A DNA stretch of 43,585 bases from the IMG/VR virus record IMGVR_UViG_2529292909_000016, positions 1-43,585 of that record. One strand, written 5' to 3'. The stretch comes from a virus. Taxonomy: Duplodnaviria > Heunggongvirae > Uroviricota > Caudoviricetes. Made by a program: the position numbers. Numbering within the stretch: the first letter of the stretch is position 1; each line of letters opens with the position of its first letter. Below are positions 1 through 6,000 of this stretch, piece after piece.

Positions 1-3000
1 TTAAGCAGCCATCTGATGATATTTTTCCCTGAAGGCTGCCGGGGAGATATTCCCCAGACGAGAGTGACGACGCTGACGATTGTAGAAAATCTCAATGTAT
101 TCCCGTATTACTGAGATGGCTTCATCCCGGTTATTAAAACGATAGTGGCTCAGGCTCTCATTTTTCAGCGTTCCCCAGAAGCTTTCCATCGGAGCGTTGT
201 CGTAACAGTTACCTTTACGCGACATTGATGTTTTCAGACCAAACTGCTCCTGTATGACCCGGTAATCGTATGCGCAGTACTGTGAACCTCGATCAGAGTG
301 GTGGATTAGCCCGGCAGGTGGGCGCTGGCTCCTGAGCGCCATAAACAGGGCTTTACCTGTCAGCTCTTTTGTCATGCGCTCTCCCATGGCGTAGCCGACA
401 ATTTCGCACGTATAAACATCTTTGATGCCAGCGAGGTACAACCTCCCTCCTGTGTGGCAACATACGTCAGGTCCGCCACCCAGACCTGATTTGGTGCTGT
501 AGGAGCGAACGTCTGGTTCAGCAGATTTGGCGCAACTGGCAGATTGTGGTTCGAGTTCGTAGTCGCTCTGAACTTGCGTTTCTGCTTACAGCGTAGCCTT
601 AGCTCCTTACGAAGACGTGCCAGTCGGTCACGACCAACGATGATGCCATTCTCTGCCAGTTCCGTCTGGAGCCGCCGGGTTCCATATGTTTCGCGAGTGC
701 GGATATGTGCCACCTTAATCTCCAGTTTTAGCCGCTCATCACTTTGTTTTCTGTCTGAGGGTTCATGCTGTACCCAGTTGTAATAACCGCTCCTGGATAC
801 ACCAAATACCTGGCACATCGCTTCAATGGGAAATTGTTGTCGCCATTGTTCGATTAACGCGTATTTTTCAGCGACTCCTGTGCAAAATACGCTGTTGTAG
901 ATTCAATTGGTCAACGCAACAGTTATGTGAAAACATGGGGTTGCGGAGGTTTTTTGAATGAGACGAACATTTACAGCAGAGGAAAAAGCCTCTGTTTTTG
1001 AACTATGGAAGAACGGAACAGGCTTCAGTGAAATAGCGAATATCCTGGGTTCAAAACCCGGAACGATCTTCACTATGTTAAGGGATACTGGCGGCATAAA
1101 ACCCCATGAGCATAAGCGGGCTGTAGCTCACCTGACACTGTCTGAGCGCGAGGAGATACGAGCTGGTTTGTCAGCCAAAATGAGCATTCGTGCGATAGCT
1201 ACTGCGCTGAATCGCAGTCCTTCGACGATCTCACGTGAAGTTCAGCGTAATCGGGGCAGACGCTATTACAAAGCTGTTGATGCTAATAACCGAGCCAACA
1301 GAATGGCGAAAAGGCCAAAACCGTGCTTACTGGATCAAAATTTACCATTGCGAAAGCTTGTTCTGGAAAAGCTGGAGATGAAATGGTCTCCAGAGCAAAT
1401 ATCAGGATGGTTAAGGCGAACAAAACCACGTCAAAAAACGCTGCGAATATCACCTGAGACAATTTATAAAACGCTGTACTTTCGTAGCCGTGAAGCGCTA
1501 CACCACCTGAATATACAGCATCTGCGACGGTCGCATAGCCTTCGCCATGGCAGGCGTCATACCCGCAAAGGCGAAAGAGGTACGATTAACATAGTGAACG
1601 GAACACCAATTCACGAACGTTCCCGAAATATCGATAACAGACGCTCTCTGGGGCATTGGGAGGGCGATTTAGTCTCAGGTACAAAAAACTCTCATATAGC
1701 CACACTTGTAGACCGAAAATCACGTTATACGATCATCCTTAGACTCAGGGGCAAAGATTCTGTCTCAGTAAATCAGGCTCTTACCGACAAATTCCTGAGT
1801 TTACCGTCAGAACTCAGAAAATCACTGACATGGGACAGAGGAATGGAACTTGGCCAGACATCTAGAATTTACTGTCAGCACCGGCGTTAAAGTTTACTTC
1901 TGCGATCCTCAGAGTCCTTGGCAGCGGGGAACAAATGAGAACACAAATGGGCTAATTCGGCAGTACTTTCCTAAAAAGACATGTCTTGCCCAATATACTC
2001 AACATGAACTAGATCTGGTTGCTGCTCAGCTAAACAACAGACCGAGAAAGACACTGAAGTTCAAAACACCGAAAGAGATAATTGAAAGGGGTGTTGCATT
2101 GACAGATTGAATCTACAGTTGCTTTTTTTAATATATCTCGCTCAAGGCGAGCTTCATTTAACGCCTTACGCAGTTGCAGAATTTCAGATTCCAGTTCAGC
2201 CACCGTGCGGGAACCAGGAGTACCGAGCCCTTTTCTGGCGGCGGTAACCCATTGTCCTAAAGTGCCTTCAGGAAGAGATAATCGGGAAGCGCCTTCACTG
2301 ATCGAAAGTTGATTTTCAAGAACCGTTCTGACAGCTTCGGCTTTGAACTCTTTAGAGTAACGTTGGGTTTTTCTGCTCATTATTAGCTCCTTCTGATGCC
2401 ATTCTATTTCAGGAAGGAGTGTCCGTTAAACTCAGGCTACCTCAGCGTATCTCGGCATCAATGCGCAAACAGCCTGATGCCCTTCGCTACGACCGCCAAA
2501 CTATTTTTGGCCTTGTCCGTGAGCGTCCGATCGACATTCACAAAGATCCCGTAGCACTGAACAAATATATCTGCGAATACCTGACGACAAAGGGCGTGTT
2601 TGAGAATGAAGAAACAGACCTGGGCACTGTTGATGTTCTCCAGTCATCAGAAACACAAACTGATGCAGTGGAAACTGAGGTATCTGATATCCCAAAAAAT
2701 GAAACCGCGCCGGAAGCTGAACCATCTGTAGAGCGTGAGGGGCCGTTCTATTTCCTCTTCGCAGATAAGGACGGAGAAAAATACGGTCGCGCAAACAAAC
2801 TCTCTGGTCTGGATAAGGCACTGGCTGCTGGCGCCACTGAAATCACAAAAGAAGAATATTTTGCCCGAAAAAATGGCACATACACGGGCTTACCGCAAAA
2901 TGTAGATACCGCTGAAGATTCAGAACAACCAGAGCCGATAAAAGTTACCGCTGACGAAGTAAACAAAATTATGCAGGCAGCCAATATCAGCCAGCCTGAC

Positions 3001-6000
3001 GCCGATAAGTTGCTTGCTGCATCACGTGGTGAATTTGTTGAAGGGATTAGTGACCCGAATGATCCGAAATGGGTTAAGGGGCTCCAGACCCGCGATTCTG
3101 TGAACCAGAACCAGCATGAATCGGAACGGAACTACCAAAAAGCGGAACAAAACAGTCCAAATGCGTTACAAAACGAGCCAGAAACGAAACAGCCTGAACC
3201 AGTAGCGCAACAGGAAGTGGAAAAAGTCTGCACCGCCTGCGGTCAGACCGGCGGCGGCAACTGCCCTGATTGTGGCGCGGTGATGGGCGACGCAACATAC
3301 CAAGAAACATTCGATGAAGAGTATCAGGTTGAAGTTCAGGAAGATGATCCGGAGGAAATGGAAGGCGCTGAACATCCACACAAGGAGAACACTGGCGGCA
3401 ATCAGCATCACAATAGCGATAATGAAACTGGCGAGACGGCAGATCACCCAATTAAGGTGAACGGTCATCACGAAATCACATCCACCAGCAGGACGTGTGA
3501 CCATCTAATGATCGACCTTGAAACCATGGGAAAAAATCCTGATGCCCCGATCATCTCAATAGGTGCAATATTTTTCGATCCGCAAACCGGAGATATGGGA
3601 CCGGAATTTAGTAAGACTATCGATCTGGAAACTGCTGGCGGAGTCATTGATCGGGACACCATTAAATGGTGGCTTAAGCAATCACGCGAAGCGCAATCTG
3701 CCATTATGACCGATGAAATCCCGTTAGATGATGCACTGTTACAATTGCGAGAATTTATCGACGAAAACTCCGGTGAATTTTTTGTTCAGGTTTGGGGAAA
3801 TGGAGCCAACTTCGACAACACGATTTTGCGCCGTTCATACGAACGGCAGGGGATCCCCTGCCCGTGGCGTTACTACAACGATCGCGATGTACGCACAATC
3901 GTTGAGCTGGGGAAAGCCATAGACTTCGATGCCAGAACGGCTATTCCATTCGAAGGTGAGCGCCATAATGCACTTGATGACGCCCGTTACCAGGCAAAAT
4001 ACGTTTCAGTTATCTGGCAAAAACTGATCCCGAGTCAGGCTGATTCTTAATGTTCAACTGTCGCCGGTTGTGACTGGTATTCTGCAACCGGCGCTCGTCT
4101 GATGTAAGAGATAAAGAAATCGATGAGCGAAGTAATCATGATTGTCTCTCCCGGCAAATGGGTATCCGAAGAGCAGTTAATTGCGCTGAAAGGAATAAAA
4201 AAAGGTACGTTAAAAAAGGCCCGGGAAAAATCGTTTATGGAAGGAAGGGAATATAAGCATGTCGCTCATGACGGTATGCCATGGGATAACAGTCCATGCT
4301 TTTACAACCTGGAAGAAATTGATCGCTGGATTGAGCGCCAGGCATCAGCGAGACCAAGACGTCATCTTACTTGACTAAAAGCCACACTAACTAATGAGAG
4401 AAGTTGAAATGAAATATCCGACAGGCGTGGAAAACCATGGAGGGAAATTACGTATCTGGTTTGTTTATAAAGACGTAAGAGTCAGGGAAAATCTGGGGGT
4501 TCCTGACACAGCAAAAAACAGGCGCGTTGCAGGTGAACTACGCTCCTCTGTTTGTTACGCAATAAAAACTGGTGTTTTCGACTATGCAAAACAGTTTCCC
4601 TCCTCACGCAATCTGGAAAAATTTGGTGAGGCCCGACAAGATTTAACCATAAAAGAACTGGCTGAAAAATTTCTGGCACTGAAAGAAACTGAAGTCGCCA
4701 AAACATCACTCAACACATACCGTGCCGTCATCAAAAATATCCTGAGCATAATCGGTGAAAAAAATCTTGCCTCATCGATTAATAAAGAAAAATTACTGGA
4801 GGTTCGTAAAGAGTTACTGACTGGATACCAGATCCCCAAAAGTAACTATATTGTTACACAACCAGGGAGATCGGCTGTAACTGTAAATAATTACATGACA
4901 AATCTTAACGCCGTGTTCCAGTTTGGTGTTGATAACGGTTACCTGGCAGATAATCCGTTTAAGGGGATCTCGCCATTAAAGGAATCAAGAACCATTCCGG
5001 ATCCTCTTTCGCGGGAAGAATTTATCCGTCTTATCGATGCGTGCAGAAATCAGCAAGCAAAAAATTTATGGTGTGTTTCTGTTTATACTGGAGTTCGCCC
5101 TGGTGAGCTGTGTGCACTTGGATGGGAGGACATAGATCTGAAAAATGGAACAATGATGATCAGGAGAAATTTAGCAAAAGACCGTTTCACGGTACCAAAA
5201 ACACAGGCGGGAACCAATCGGGTCATTCATCTTATTAAGCCAGCAATCGACGCTCTCCGGAGTCAGATGACATTAACGAGACTGAGCAAAGAGCATATCA
5301 TTGATGTTCACCTCAGAGAGTATGGCAGAACAGAAAAACAAAAATGCACCTTTGTTTTTCAACCTGAAGTGTCAGCGAGAGTAAAAAATTATGGTGACCA
5401 TTTTACCGTTGACTCAATAAGGCAGATGTGGGACGCAGCGATAAAACGTGCCGGACTCCGCCATCGAAAATCATATCAGTCGAGACATACTTATGCCTGC
5501 TGGTCGCTGACAGCTGGTGCTAACCCGGCATTTATAGCAAACCAGATGGGCCATGCAGATGCGCAAATGGTATTTCAGGTATACGGAAAATGGATGTCTG
5601 AAAACAATAATGCACAGGTAGCTTTGTTAAATACACAGTTAAGCGAGTTTGCCCCAACCATGCCCCATAACGAAGCAATGAAAAATTAATTTAATATTTA
5701 TCAAATAGTTAACACGCATGACTCTTGAAATCCATAAATTCAAGCGCAGTGCCCAGCCATCCCGATACTGCTGCTTTCACCAAATCCTTAGTGCTTCTTT
5801 CGTGTTTTTCTATTGTCATAATGGTTATCTCTAAAAAAGAGGTAAGATGCGTACTACTTACTCGCCGTTATTGGTATTATTCAGAAAAAGTGAGTAAGAC
5901 TTTGCAGCAATGTTTTTGATCCTGTTCAAATAAACTAATGGCATCAGCAACATGCTGGAAATCAAACGTATGGGTAATTAATTTTTCTGGTTTAATTAAC

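What the first reader, a model, noticed from the sequence alone, without database searches (positions are those of the whole stretch)
2446..4050. Prophage early-region protein with acidic N-terminal half, Cys4 ribbon and DEDDh exonuclease domain, decapitated by the IS
The protein upstream of xis/int combines an acidic low-complexity N-terminal half, a central CxxC…CxxC ribbon and a C-terminal DnaQ-like 3'-5' exonuclease domain (DLE…, …FDN…, H…DD). This is not the lambda Exo or RecE fold (the true lambda-type exo is present elsewhere in the window, at 42605-43285). Its native start and promoter have been replaced by the IS3-family terminal repeat, so expression may now depend on outward transcription from the IS.
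Basis: partly seen in the sequence, partly recalled or inferred. Interest (0 to 1): 0.45.

Follow-up and report, generated by a model that had tools for sequence, protein, structure and literature searches.

The report
IS600-truncated prophage 3'-5' exonuclease pseudogene
This is the tail end (534 of 823 codons) of a well-known prophage exonuclease gene that a jumping gene (IS600) cut in two, a remnant that public annotation already labels a pseudogene, so it is ordinary.

Summary
Window 2446-4050 is an open frame encoding an acidic protein (pI 4.5). It has a CxxC-x7-CxxC motif and a C-terminal DEDDh 3'-5' exonuclease domain (Pfam PF16473, E 1e-67; D357, E359, D457, H507, D512). It abuts the end of an IS3-family element.

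The element is IS600, carrying a nested IS30. It inserted by simple transposition, leaving a 3-bp GCG duplication, between codons 289 and 290 of an 823-codon gene.

The gene is the last one of the early-left (dicB) operon of Qin-type lambdoid prophages. K-12 ydfE is the N-terminal stump of the same gene, cut there by IS2. An intact allele with no nucleotide differences exists in phage PhiR42_1.

RefSeq already annotates this remnant as "incomplete; missing N-terminus". The junction occurs in 36 of 5,426 complete E. coli genomes.

- The nuclease domain is not RecE-like, but the central region including the Cys4 ribbon is homologous to RecE (E 5e-57).
- Nothing supports expression driven from the IS. 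The only promoter-like site reads away from the gene.

The closest solved structure is T4 DexA, a DNA exonuclease. Verdict: ordinary, already known.

The parts
1..894 (-). IS600 (IS3 family), 3' part of the transposase region. The window starts at the transposase stop codon, so the far IS end lies outside it.
   Evidence: 99.7% identical to IS600 of strain H3. PGAP names it 'IS3-like element IS600 family transposase'.
895..2119 (+). IS30 nested inside IS600. The transposase frame is split by a 1-nt insertion near 1850 (ORFs 958..1890 and 1850..2110).
   Evidence: Its orientation is opposite to that in ML35 and 98-3133.
2120..2444 (-). IS600 5' part: orfA start (ATG 2380 on the minus strand) and the terminal inverted repeat ending ...CTACCTCA at 2444.
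   Evidence: 100% identical to IS600 of strain H3; sequence read directly.
2401..2429 (-). Promoter-like site TTAACG-17-TAGAAT in the IS600 end. It reads into the transposase gene and away from the exonuclease fragment.
   Evidence: It is the only promoter-like site found in 1800-4450 on either strand.
2445..2447 (.). GCG, one copy of the 3-bp target-site duplication made by the IS600 insertion.
   Evidence: The same GCG flanks the other IS end in strain H3. The IS-free allele reads GACTGGAAGCGTATCTCG.
2446..4050 (+). Truncated coding sequence: codons 290-823 (534 aa plus stop) of the Qin-type prophage ydfE-exonuclease gene. It is a pseudogene remnant.
   Evidence: No nucleotide differences from phage PhiR42_1 over 1602 nt. 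100.000% identical to the IS-free locus L006 over 9607 bp. PGAP note: 'incomplete; missing N-terminus'.
2446..2610 (+). Fragment residues 1-55: the last three helices of a five-helix domain (residues about 245-340 of the intact protein) that the IS cut inside helix 286-296.
   Evidence: AlphaFold2 models of the fragment and of the full-length relative.
2743..2889 (+). Fragment residues 100-148 (PFYFLFADKDGEKYGRANKLSGLDKALAAGATEITKEEYFARKNG): a small module of a beta-hairpin plus helices. Function unknown.
   Evidence: pLDDT 85-93. It falls in a gapped, non-conserved stretch of the alignment with K-12 RecE.
3229..3273 (+). CxxC-x7-CxxC motif (C262, C265, C273, C276), a putative zinc ribbon shared with RecE.
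   Evidence: The model is only moderately confident here (pLDDT about 56-72).
3280..3483 (+). Acidic, His-rich disordered linker (fragment residues 279-346), also shared with RecE.
   Evidence: pLDDT below 50. It aligns with RecE residues 540-591.
3493..4029 (+). DEDDh 3'-5' exonuclease domain (fragment residues 350-528). Catalytic codons: D357 at 3514-3516, E359 at 3520-3522, D457 at 3814-3816, H507 at 3964-3966, D512 at 3979-3981.
4123..4374 (+). Excisionase (DUF1233), context gene.
   Evidence: Pfam PF06806, E 1.6e-31.
4394..5689 (+). Tyrosine integrase of the Qin-type prophage, next to rspB. Context gene.
   Evidence: Pfam PF12167 and PF00589; annotation.

Best explanation
Window 2446-4050 is the 3' two-thirds of a disrupted prophage gene and is most likely a dead remnant.

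The intact gene.
- It has 823 codons and is the last gene of the repressor-controlled early-left operon of Qin-type lambdoid prophages.
- The operon order is ydfA-ydfB-ydfC-dicB-ydfD-gene-xis-int.

What happened (shown).
- IS600 transposed into codon 289/290 and duplicated GCG.
- IS30 later landed inside that IS600.
- The insertion removed the start codon and the YdfE_N and YdfE_C domains, and it split a five-helix domain.
- It also cut the gene off from its operon promoter.
- The flanking DNA is identical to IS-free alleles, so the event is recent. The open frame therefore says nothing about selection.

How the intact protein works (partly inferred).
- It is a mosaic. The order is a YdfE-type N-terminal region, a helical domain, folded small modules joined by acidic disordered linkers, a RecE-type Cys4 ribbon, and a C-terminal DEDDh domain.
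- The DEDDh domain is closest to T4 DexA. It should remove nucleotides from 3' ends by two-metal-ion catalysis using D357, E359, D457, H507 and D512. The substrate is most likely DNA.
- The gene sits in the early-left operon and is never followed by recT. I therefore infer that it acts alone on DNA 3' ends during lytic growth, rather than as the resection half of a RecET-type recombinase.
For: Insertion and its age.
- Junction and target duplication.
- PGAP pseudogene flags in three genomes.
- IS-free allele at the same rspB-side site, 100.000% identical over 9607 bp.
- Intact 823-aa allele in phage PhiR42_1 with no nucleotide differences over the fragment.
- The other half of the gene lies left of the IS in strain H3.
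- K-12 ydfE is 87% identical to the first 256 aa of the 823-aa relative P0099 and is cut by IS2.
- The junction is present in only 36 of 5,426 genomes.

No sign of expression.
- The only promoter-like site points away from the fragment.
- The breakpoint lies inside helix 286-296 of a confident domain.

Exonuclease domain.
- Pfam E 1.4e-67.
- Invariant catalytic residues.
- DexA is a DNA exonuclease (PMC12153337).

Relation to RecE.
- Central homology to RecE.
- Mosaic relatives exist with every combination of N-terminus and nuclease.
- DEDDh forms are followed directly by xis and int, with no annealing protein, in six contexts.
- PD-(D/E)XK forms are followed by recT in two contexts.
- Lambdoid recombination modules with DnaQ-like 3'-5' nucleases were reported in PMC12315714.
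Against: - No expression data were available, so transcription of the remnant cannot be excluded. One possible source is read-through from the co-oriented IS30.
- GTG 2419 inside the IS end is in frame with the fragment, with AGGA four bases upstream.
- The DEDDh domain is complete, and homologues of about 180 aa work as stand-alone proteins (EcD in PMC12153337). A truncated product could therefore still be active.
- The DNA-versus-RNA substrate call rests on similarity to DexA only. Pfam names the family after an exoribonuclease.
- The link between nuclease type and recT rests on eight contexts only.
Confidence: 0.82

Rival explanations
1. The remnant is still expressed. Transcription would start in or read through the IS30/IS600 composite. 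Translation would start at GTG 2419 (giving nine IS-encoded residues fused in frame), at ATG 2461, or internally at Met355. The product would be an N-terminally truncated but catalytically complete exonuclease that the host may have co-opted.
For: - The frame is open from 2419 to 4050, and the IS-derived GTG is in frame.
- In this window IS30 points the same way as the fragment.
- The DEDDh domain is intact.
- Stand-alone homologues of about 180 aa start exactly at the residue equivalent to Met355.
- A stand-alone E. coli DexA homologue, EcD, is active and protects against T4 (PMC12153337).
Against: - No plus-strand promoter-like site exists in 1800-4450.
- Ribosome-binding sites are poor or absent at all three candidate starts.
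- The fragment is identical to intact alleles, so frame conservation is uninformative.
- In the other junction-bearing genomes inspected, IS30 is absent or points the opposite way. No complete genome shares the window's arrangement.
- The break splits a folded domain.
Confidence: 0.1
2. The intact protein is a RecE-like recombination exonuclease that works with an annealing protein, as the public labels 'exodeoxyribonuclease VIII' imply.
For: - The central region is homologous to RecE, E 5e-57.
- NCBIfam's exodeoxyribonuclease VIII model matches part of the protein.
- PHROG and GenBank label it exonuclease VIII.
- It occupies the same operon position as recE.
Against: - It scores 278 bits against the family cut-off of 1269.
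- There is no PD-(D/E)XK domain. The nuclease is DEDDh, with the opposite polarity.
- No recT, bet or erf gene follows it in six contexts. recT does follow the PD-(D/E)XK forms (versus 26, 94, 95).
Confidence: 0.05
3. The exonuclease domain acts on RNA, as the Pfam family name (Rv2179c-like 3'-5' exoribonuclease) and the RefSeq product name suggest. It would trim or degrade transcripts or small RNAs during phage growth.
For: - Pfam PF16473 is named after the M. tuberculosis exoribonuclease Rv2179c.
- RNase T, oligoribonuclease and ERI1 are among the structural neighbours.
Against: - T4 DexA, a DNA exonuclease, is the nearest relative by sequence profile and by fold.
- Many DEDDh enzymes, RNase T included, cut both nucleic acids, so the fold cannot settle the question.
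Confidence: 0.2

Closest known systems
E. coli K-12 ydfE (b1577), Qin prophage pseudogene; Pfam YdfE_N (PF27430) and YdfE_C (PF27432)
   Same: It is the same gene at the same chromosomal site: dicB-ydfD-gene-(xis)-int-rspB. K-12 ydfE is 87% identical to residues 1-256 of the 823-aa relative P0099, the nearest intact form compared.
   Different: K-12 keeps the N-terminal stump, cut by IS2. This window keeps the C-terminal 534 codons, cut by IS600. These are two independent IS hits in one gene.
Intact allele in Escherichia phage PhiR42_1 (PV340562.1, 'exodeoxyribonuclease VIII'), and the 731-823 aa 'exonuclease' / '3'-5' exoribonuclease' proteins of E. coli prophages (PHROG 2082)
   Same: It shows no nucleotide differences over window 2446-4047 and has the same neighbours. 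Copies covering at least 80% of window 2300-4400 are found in 2,449 of 5,426 complete E. coli genomes.
   Different: Those copies carry the 289-codon N-terminal part and sit behind the operon promoter.
RecE (exonuclease VIII) of the Rac prophage
   Same: It holds the same position in the early-left operon. The central region is homologous, including the Cys4 ribbon and the acidic linker that precede the nuclease. Relatives swap the RecE-type N-terminus (PF06630) with the YdfE type.
   Different: RecE ends in a PD-(D/E)XK 5'-3' exonuclease and is followed by recT. This protein ends in a DEDDh 3'-5' exonuclease and is followed by xis and int.
T4 DexA (PDB 8kel, 8ken) and its E. coli homologue EcD ('HREX', PMC12153337)
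   Same: DexA is the best sequence and fold match to the nuclease domain, and all five catalytic residues align.
   Different: - DexA and EcD are stand-alone proteins of about 180-227 aa. Here the domain is the C-terminus of an 823-aa protein.
- Identity to DexA is only about 22%.
- By profile alignment, DexA W152 corresponds to Tyr and DexA D169 to Ala here. These are the residues proposed for 5hmC recognition (read by eye).
- The EcD sequence could not be retrieved for comparison.
Rv2179c of M. tuberculosis (namesake of Pfam PF16473; PDB 4hec, identity from memory)
   Same: It belongs to the same Pfam family and has the same DEDDh fold.

Membership tests
DEDDh (DnaQ-like) 3'-5' exonucleases, Pfam PF16473 / DexA group | Score above the family's curated Pfam threshold | tested here: met
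   227.2 bits against a cut-off of 27, E 1.4e-67, covering profile positions 2-177 of 177.
DEDDh (DnaQ-like) 3'-5' exonucleases, Pfam PF16473 / DexA group | Exo I motif D-x-E | tested here: met
   D357 and E359 (MIDLET) are invariant in 39 diverged homologues and align with the DexA iDfEt motif.
DEDDh (DnaQ-like) 3'-5' exonucleases, Pfam PF16473 / DexA group | Exo II motif with an acidic residue after an aromatic residue (..F/Y-D) | tested here: met
   D457 in GANFD is invariant, and conserved in 95 of 99 sequences in the wider alignment.
DEDDh (DnaQ-like) 3'-5' exonucleases, Pfam PF16473 / DexA group | Exo III motif H-x4-D (the 'h' subtype) | tested here: met
   In H507-N-A-L-D-D512, H is invariant and D is at least 90% conserved. 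The motif aligns with DexA H186..D191.
DEDDh (DnaQ-like) 3'-5' exonucleases, Pfam PF16473 / DexA group | RNase H-like alpha/beta fold of the exonuclease domain | tested here: met
DEDDh (DnaQ-like) 3'-5' exonucleases, Pfam PF16473 / DexA group | Metal-dependent 3'-5' exonuclease activity, and the substrate (DNA or RNA) | not testable with these tools
   This needs an enzyme assay.
RecE / exodeoxyribonuclease VIII (NCBIfam NF007259) | Score above the equivalog cut-off | tested here: not met
   278 bits against a cut-off of 1269. Only model positions 287-600 of 877 are matched.
RecE / exodeoxyribonuclease VIII (NCBIfam NF007259) | C-terminal PD-(D/E)XK 5'-3' nuclease domain | tested here: not met
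   No PD-(D/E)XK, DUF3799 or YqaJ match was found. The C-terminus is DEDDh.
RecE / exodeoxyribonuclease VIII (NCBIfam NF007259) | An adjacent recT annealing-protein gene | tested here: not met
   xis and int follow directly in six contexts. recT follows recE in K-12 and follows the PD-(D/E)XK relative P0137.
RecE / exodeoxyribonuclease VIII (NCBIfam NF007259) | Central region with the Cys4 ribbon and acidic linker | tested here: met
   BLASTP E 5e-57. The stretch LLAASRGEFV...CxACGQxGGxNCPxCGAVMGDATYQETFD...MEGAEHPH is nearly identical.
IS3-family simple insertion (IS600) | Element ends TG...CA, flanked by a 3-bp direct target duplication | tested here: met
   The ends read TGAGGTG... and ...CTACCTCA. 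GCG is present on both sides in strain H3 and once in IS-free alleles. The window itself holds only one end.
Pseudogene (non-functional remnant) | Loss of the start codon and N-terminal domains, and disruption of a folded domain | tested here: met
   289 of 823 codons are missing. The break falls inside helix 286-296. PGAP flags it as a pseudogene.
Pseudogene (non-functional remnant) | Absence of transcription and translation | tested here: inconclusive
   There is no plus-strand promoter-like site and the ribosome-binding sites are weak. Consensus scans cannot prove silence, and no expression data were available.
HREX / EcD-type anti-phage exonuclease (PMC12153337) | Stand-alone DexA homologue with the Trp and Asp proposed to recognise 5hmC, lacking the tetramer-forming Asp | tested here: not met
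   - The domain is fused to a large protein rather than stand-alone.
- DexA W152 aligns with Tyr, D169 with Ala, and D90 with Asp (read by eye).
- PADLOC gives only a weak hit to the generic DEDDh model (E 9.5e-6).

The most novel reading that the evidence does not exclude
The remnant could be a domesticated gene rather than junk. Transcripts reading through from the co-oriented IS30 would be translated from the in-frame GTG at 2419, or internally at Met355. The product would be a free DexA-like 3'-5' exonuclease, expressed outside prophage repressor control. It might then act on incoming phage DNA, much as the stand-alone E. coli homologue EcD is reported to do.

At the family level, a related reading is that the RecE-type scaffold is a general delivery platform for interchangeable nucleases of opposite polarity, and that only the 5'-3' version is coupled to RecT.
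Probability: 0.04. Interest if true: 0.5.

Novelty: already known. Interest (0 to 1): 0.15.

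Why it matters
As a finding in this window it matters little. It is a recent IS600 hit in a cryptic-prophage gene, and RefSeq already annotates it that way.

Its main practical use is as a caution about annotation. Identical sequences carry four different labels: exodeoxyribonuclease VIII, exonuclease, 3'-5' exoribonuclease and YdfE. Only comparison with IS-free alleles shows that K-12 ydfE and this fragment are the two halves of one gene.

The family itself is mildly interesting. 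It shows lambdoid mosaicism inside a single protein:
- two N-terminal types combine with two nuclease types of opposite polarity;
- they are joined by a shared central region that includes a Cys4 ribbon;
- recT is present only alongside the 5'-3' nuclease.

The role of the 3'-5' version in phage growth is untested.

Tried and rejected
- **Retrieving EcD.** I tried to fetch the sequence of EcD (HAK9828821.1), the characterised E. coli DexA homologue, to compare it directly. The paper's text and supplements hold only the primers. A scan of genome contigs with the 17-nt primer core gave 99 hits (80 listed), none of those listed from Enterobacteriaceae, consistent with chance.
- **dN/dS for constraint on the remnant.** The comparison sequences are too close. 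There are no differences from PhiR42_1 and 11 from locus L005. The IS-free locus is identical over 9.6 kb. The test therefore has no power.
- **Rfam scan of window 1-6000.** No RNA family reached its threshold.
- **PADLOC defence models.** The only hit was a weak one to the generic CRISPR-associated DEDDh model. I rejected this as evidence of a defence role.
- **Literature on PhiR42_1.** None was found.
- **Whether the window's IS30 orientation occurs elsewhere next to this fragment.** It does not, in any of the 5,426 complete genomes.
- **The lambda-type exo at 42605-43285 as part of the same element.** Rejected: chromosomal genes (rspB through ynfF) and a second prophage boundary near 16055 lie in between.

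Full report
**What is at the coordinates**

An open frame runs from GTG 2419 to the TAA stop at 4048-4050. From 2446 onward it encodes 534 residues with pI 4.5 and a net charge of -49. Four cysteines are arranged CxxC-x7-CxxC at residues 262-276. Pfam places residues 350-528 in PF16473 (Rv2179c-like 3'-5' exoribonuclease domain) at 227 bits against a cut-off of 27. The two downstream genes are an excisionase (DUF1233) and a tyrosine integrase.

**The insertion**

Upstream of 2445 lies IS600, an IS3-family element with its transposase on the minus strand. An IS30 is nested at 895-2119. I compared the window with strain H3, which has the same IS600 without the IS30.
- The element ends ...CTACCTCA at window 2444.
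- It is flanked on both sides by GCG.
- IS-free alleles read GAC TGG AAG CGT ATC TCG, with a single GCG.

This is a simple transposition with a 3-bp target duplication between Lys289 and Arg290. It is not a replacement of the 5' end. In strain H3 the preceding codons of the gene still lie on the far side of the IS. There, a further rearrangement has removed the first 140 or so codons and the upstream operon. The window itself begins inside IS600, so that side cannot be seen here.

**Recovering the intact gene**

Close relatives of 731 and about 823 residues are abundant. Three comparisons fix the identity of the gene:
- Locus L006 is an IS-free genome with the gene at the same place (dicB-ydfD-gene-xis-int-rspB-rspA). 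It is 100.000% identical to window 2444-12050 over 9607 bp.
- Phage PhiR42_1 (PV340562.1, host ECOR13) carries an 823-codon allele with no nucleotide differences across the fragment.
- The K-12 pseudogene ydfE, cut by IS2, is 87% identical to the first 256 residues of the 823-aa relative P0099. Pfam's YdfE_N and YdfE_C families are named after it.

The window therefore holds codons 290-823 of the ydfE-exonuclease gene. K-12 holds the other end. PGAP marks the remnant 'incomplete; missing N-terminus' in all three genomes I inspected. The IS600-gene junction is present in 36 of 5,426 complete E. coli genomes. Copies covering at least 80% of window 2300-4400 are found in 2,449 genomes.

**Is the remnant expressed?**

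I found nothing in favour of expression.
- The end of IS600 that abuts the fragment is the transposase-proximal end.
- The only sigma-70-like site in 1800-4450 is on the minus strand (2429 to 2401) and reads into the transposase gene.
- GTG 2419 is in frame by chance and has AGGA four bases upstream. ATG 2461 and Met355 have no usable ribosome-binding site.
- The AlphaFold2 model of a full-length relative puts the breakpoint inside helix 286-296 of a confident five-helix domain. The remnant would start with a broken domain.
- The flanks are identical to intact alleles, so the open frame carries no information about selection.

One caveat remains. In this window IS30 points the same way as the fragment, so read-through transcription is conceivable. 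In the other junction-bearing genomes IS30 is absent or inverted. No complete genome shares the window's arrangement. Only expression data can settle this.

**The nuclease domain**

In an alignment of 39 homologues at no more than about 50% identity, D357, E359, D457 and H507 are invariant and D512 is at least 90% conserved. These are the Exo I (D-x-E), Exo II (F-D) and Exo III (H-x4-D) motifs.
- A profile of that alignment finds T4 DexA (8kel, 8ken) at E 2.4e-22 over the whole domain. DnaQ and oligoribonucleases follow far behind.
- DexA is a DNA exonuclease. A stand-alone E. coli homologue, EcD, was reported to degrade 5hmC DNA and to protect against T4 (PMC12153337).

I therefore favour DNA 3' ends as the substrate, but this is an inference from similarity. 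By profile alignment, the residues proposed for 5hmC recognition in DexA (W152 and D169) correspond to Tyr and Ala here. I do not infer that specificity for this protein.

**The rest of the protein, and the RecE connection**

The 'acidic low-complexity half' resolves into folded modules at fragment residues 1-55, 100-148 and about 169-210. Disordered acidic linkers separate them.

Residues 279-625 of the intact protein align with K-12 RecE residues 294-591 at E 5e-57. Identity is close from LLAASRGEFV through the Cys4 ribbon to the acidic linker that ends where RecE's nuclease begins. NCBIfam's exodeoxyribonuclease VIII model matches the same stretch but scores far below its cut-off (278 bits against 1269). 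The scaffold, however, is RecE-like.

A full HMMER search found 11,753 relatives.
- Most are stand-alone exonucleases of about 180-200 aa.
- Some long forms have a RecE-type N-terminus (PF06630) with a DEDDh domain.
- At least one long form has a YdfE-type N-terminus with a PD-(D/E)XK domain.
- The Cys4 motif is present in 9 of the 150 representatives and absent from many long forms.

**Gene context**

DEDDh-ended proteins are the last gene before xis and int, with no annealing protein, in six contexts. This holds whichever N-terminus they carry. PD-(D/E)XK-ended proteins are followed by recT in K-12 Rac and in the YdfE-type relative P0137. The sample is small but consistent: recT goes with the nuclease type, not with the N-terminus. 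This argues that the DEDDh version does not work as the resection partner of an annealing protein. A 2025 survey also noted DnaQ-like 3'-5' nucleases in lambdoid recombination modules (PMC12315714). The N-terminal region of RecE is of unknown function but enhances linear-linear recombination (review PMC11611040).

**Verdict**

The finding is a correctly observed, recently made and already annotated pseudogene of a common prophage gene. Novelty is nil for the remnant itself. The family's within-protein mosaicism and the untested role of its 3'-5' nuclease are of modest interest.

Noticed in passing
window 895-2119: IS30 is nested in IS600 and its transposase frame is broken by a 1-nt insertion near 1850 (ORFs 958..1890 and 1850..2110). 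It is inverted relative to the IS30 at the same site in ML35 and O157:H16 98-3133, and it is absent in strain H3. No complete E. coli genome of 5,426 has the window's arrangement next to the exonuclease fragment, although the same IS30/IS600 junction occurs at other loci in 850 genomes. Possible causes are an in-place inversion, an independent insertion into a palindromic hot spot, or an assembly artefact.
   Followed up: partly
window about 16055 to 43585: Synteny with the ML35 chromosome (rspB, rspA, ynfA-ynfF) stops at 16055. A second lambdoid prophage begins there, with ead/Ea22-like, antirepressor and TraR/DksA genes. It runs to the window end and holds lysis-like ORFs at 36.6-38.2 kb, bet (41823..42608) and a lambda-type exo (42605..43285).
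   Followed up: partly
window 38821-40731 (minus strand): A 636-aa ORF lies between the lysis-like genes and bet/exo of the second prophage. Its function was not examined.
   Followed up: no
window 4063-4092: An 8-bp GC-rich inverted repeat (GCCGGTTG ... CAACCGGC, 14-nt loop) sits just after the exonuclease stop codon and before xis, without a T-run. The terminator scan did not call it, and its role is unknown.
   Followed up: no
L001 (strain H3) 3407-4885; L006 6401-8490: In genomes carrying the IS600 insertion, the region upstream of the IS is also rearranged. The ydfA-ydfD genes and the first 140 or so codons of the exonuclease gene are replaced by a DUF977 fragment and a SAM-dependent methyltransferase gene. 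The prophage had therefore decayed further, independently of the IS hit.
   Followed up: partly
L006 and P0002 versus L107 and P0099: The 731-aa alleles differ from the 823-aa alleles by an in-frame deletion of about 92 residues. The deleted stretch covers roughly residues 164-255 of the long form and includes a predicted disordered stretch.
   Followed up: partly
L113 and L114 (relative P0143): A 789-aa relative has YdfE_N and YdfE_C but no recognisable nuclease domain by Pfam. It is followed by a Sipho_Gp157-family gene. It may correspond to the nuclease-less 'RecE-2' proteins mentioned in PMC12315714.
   Followed up: no
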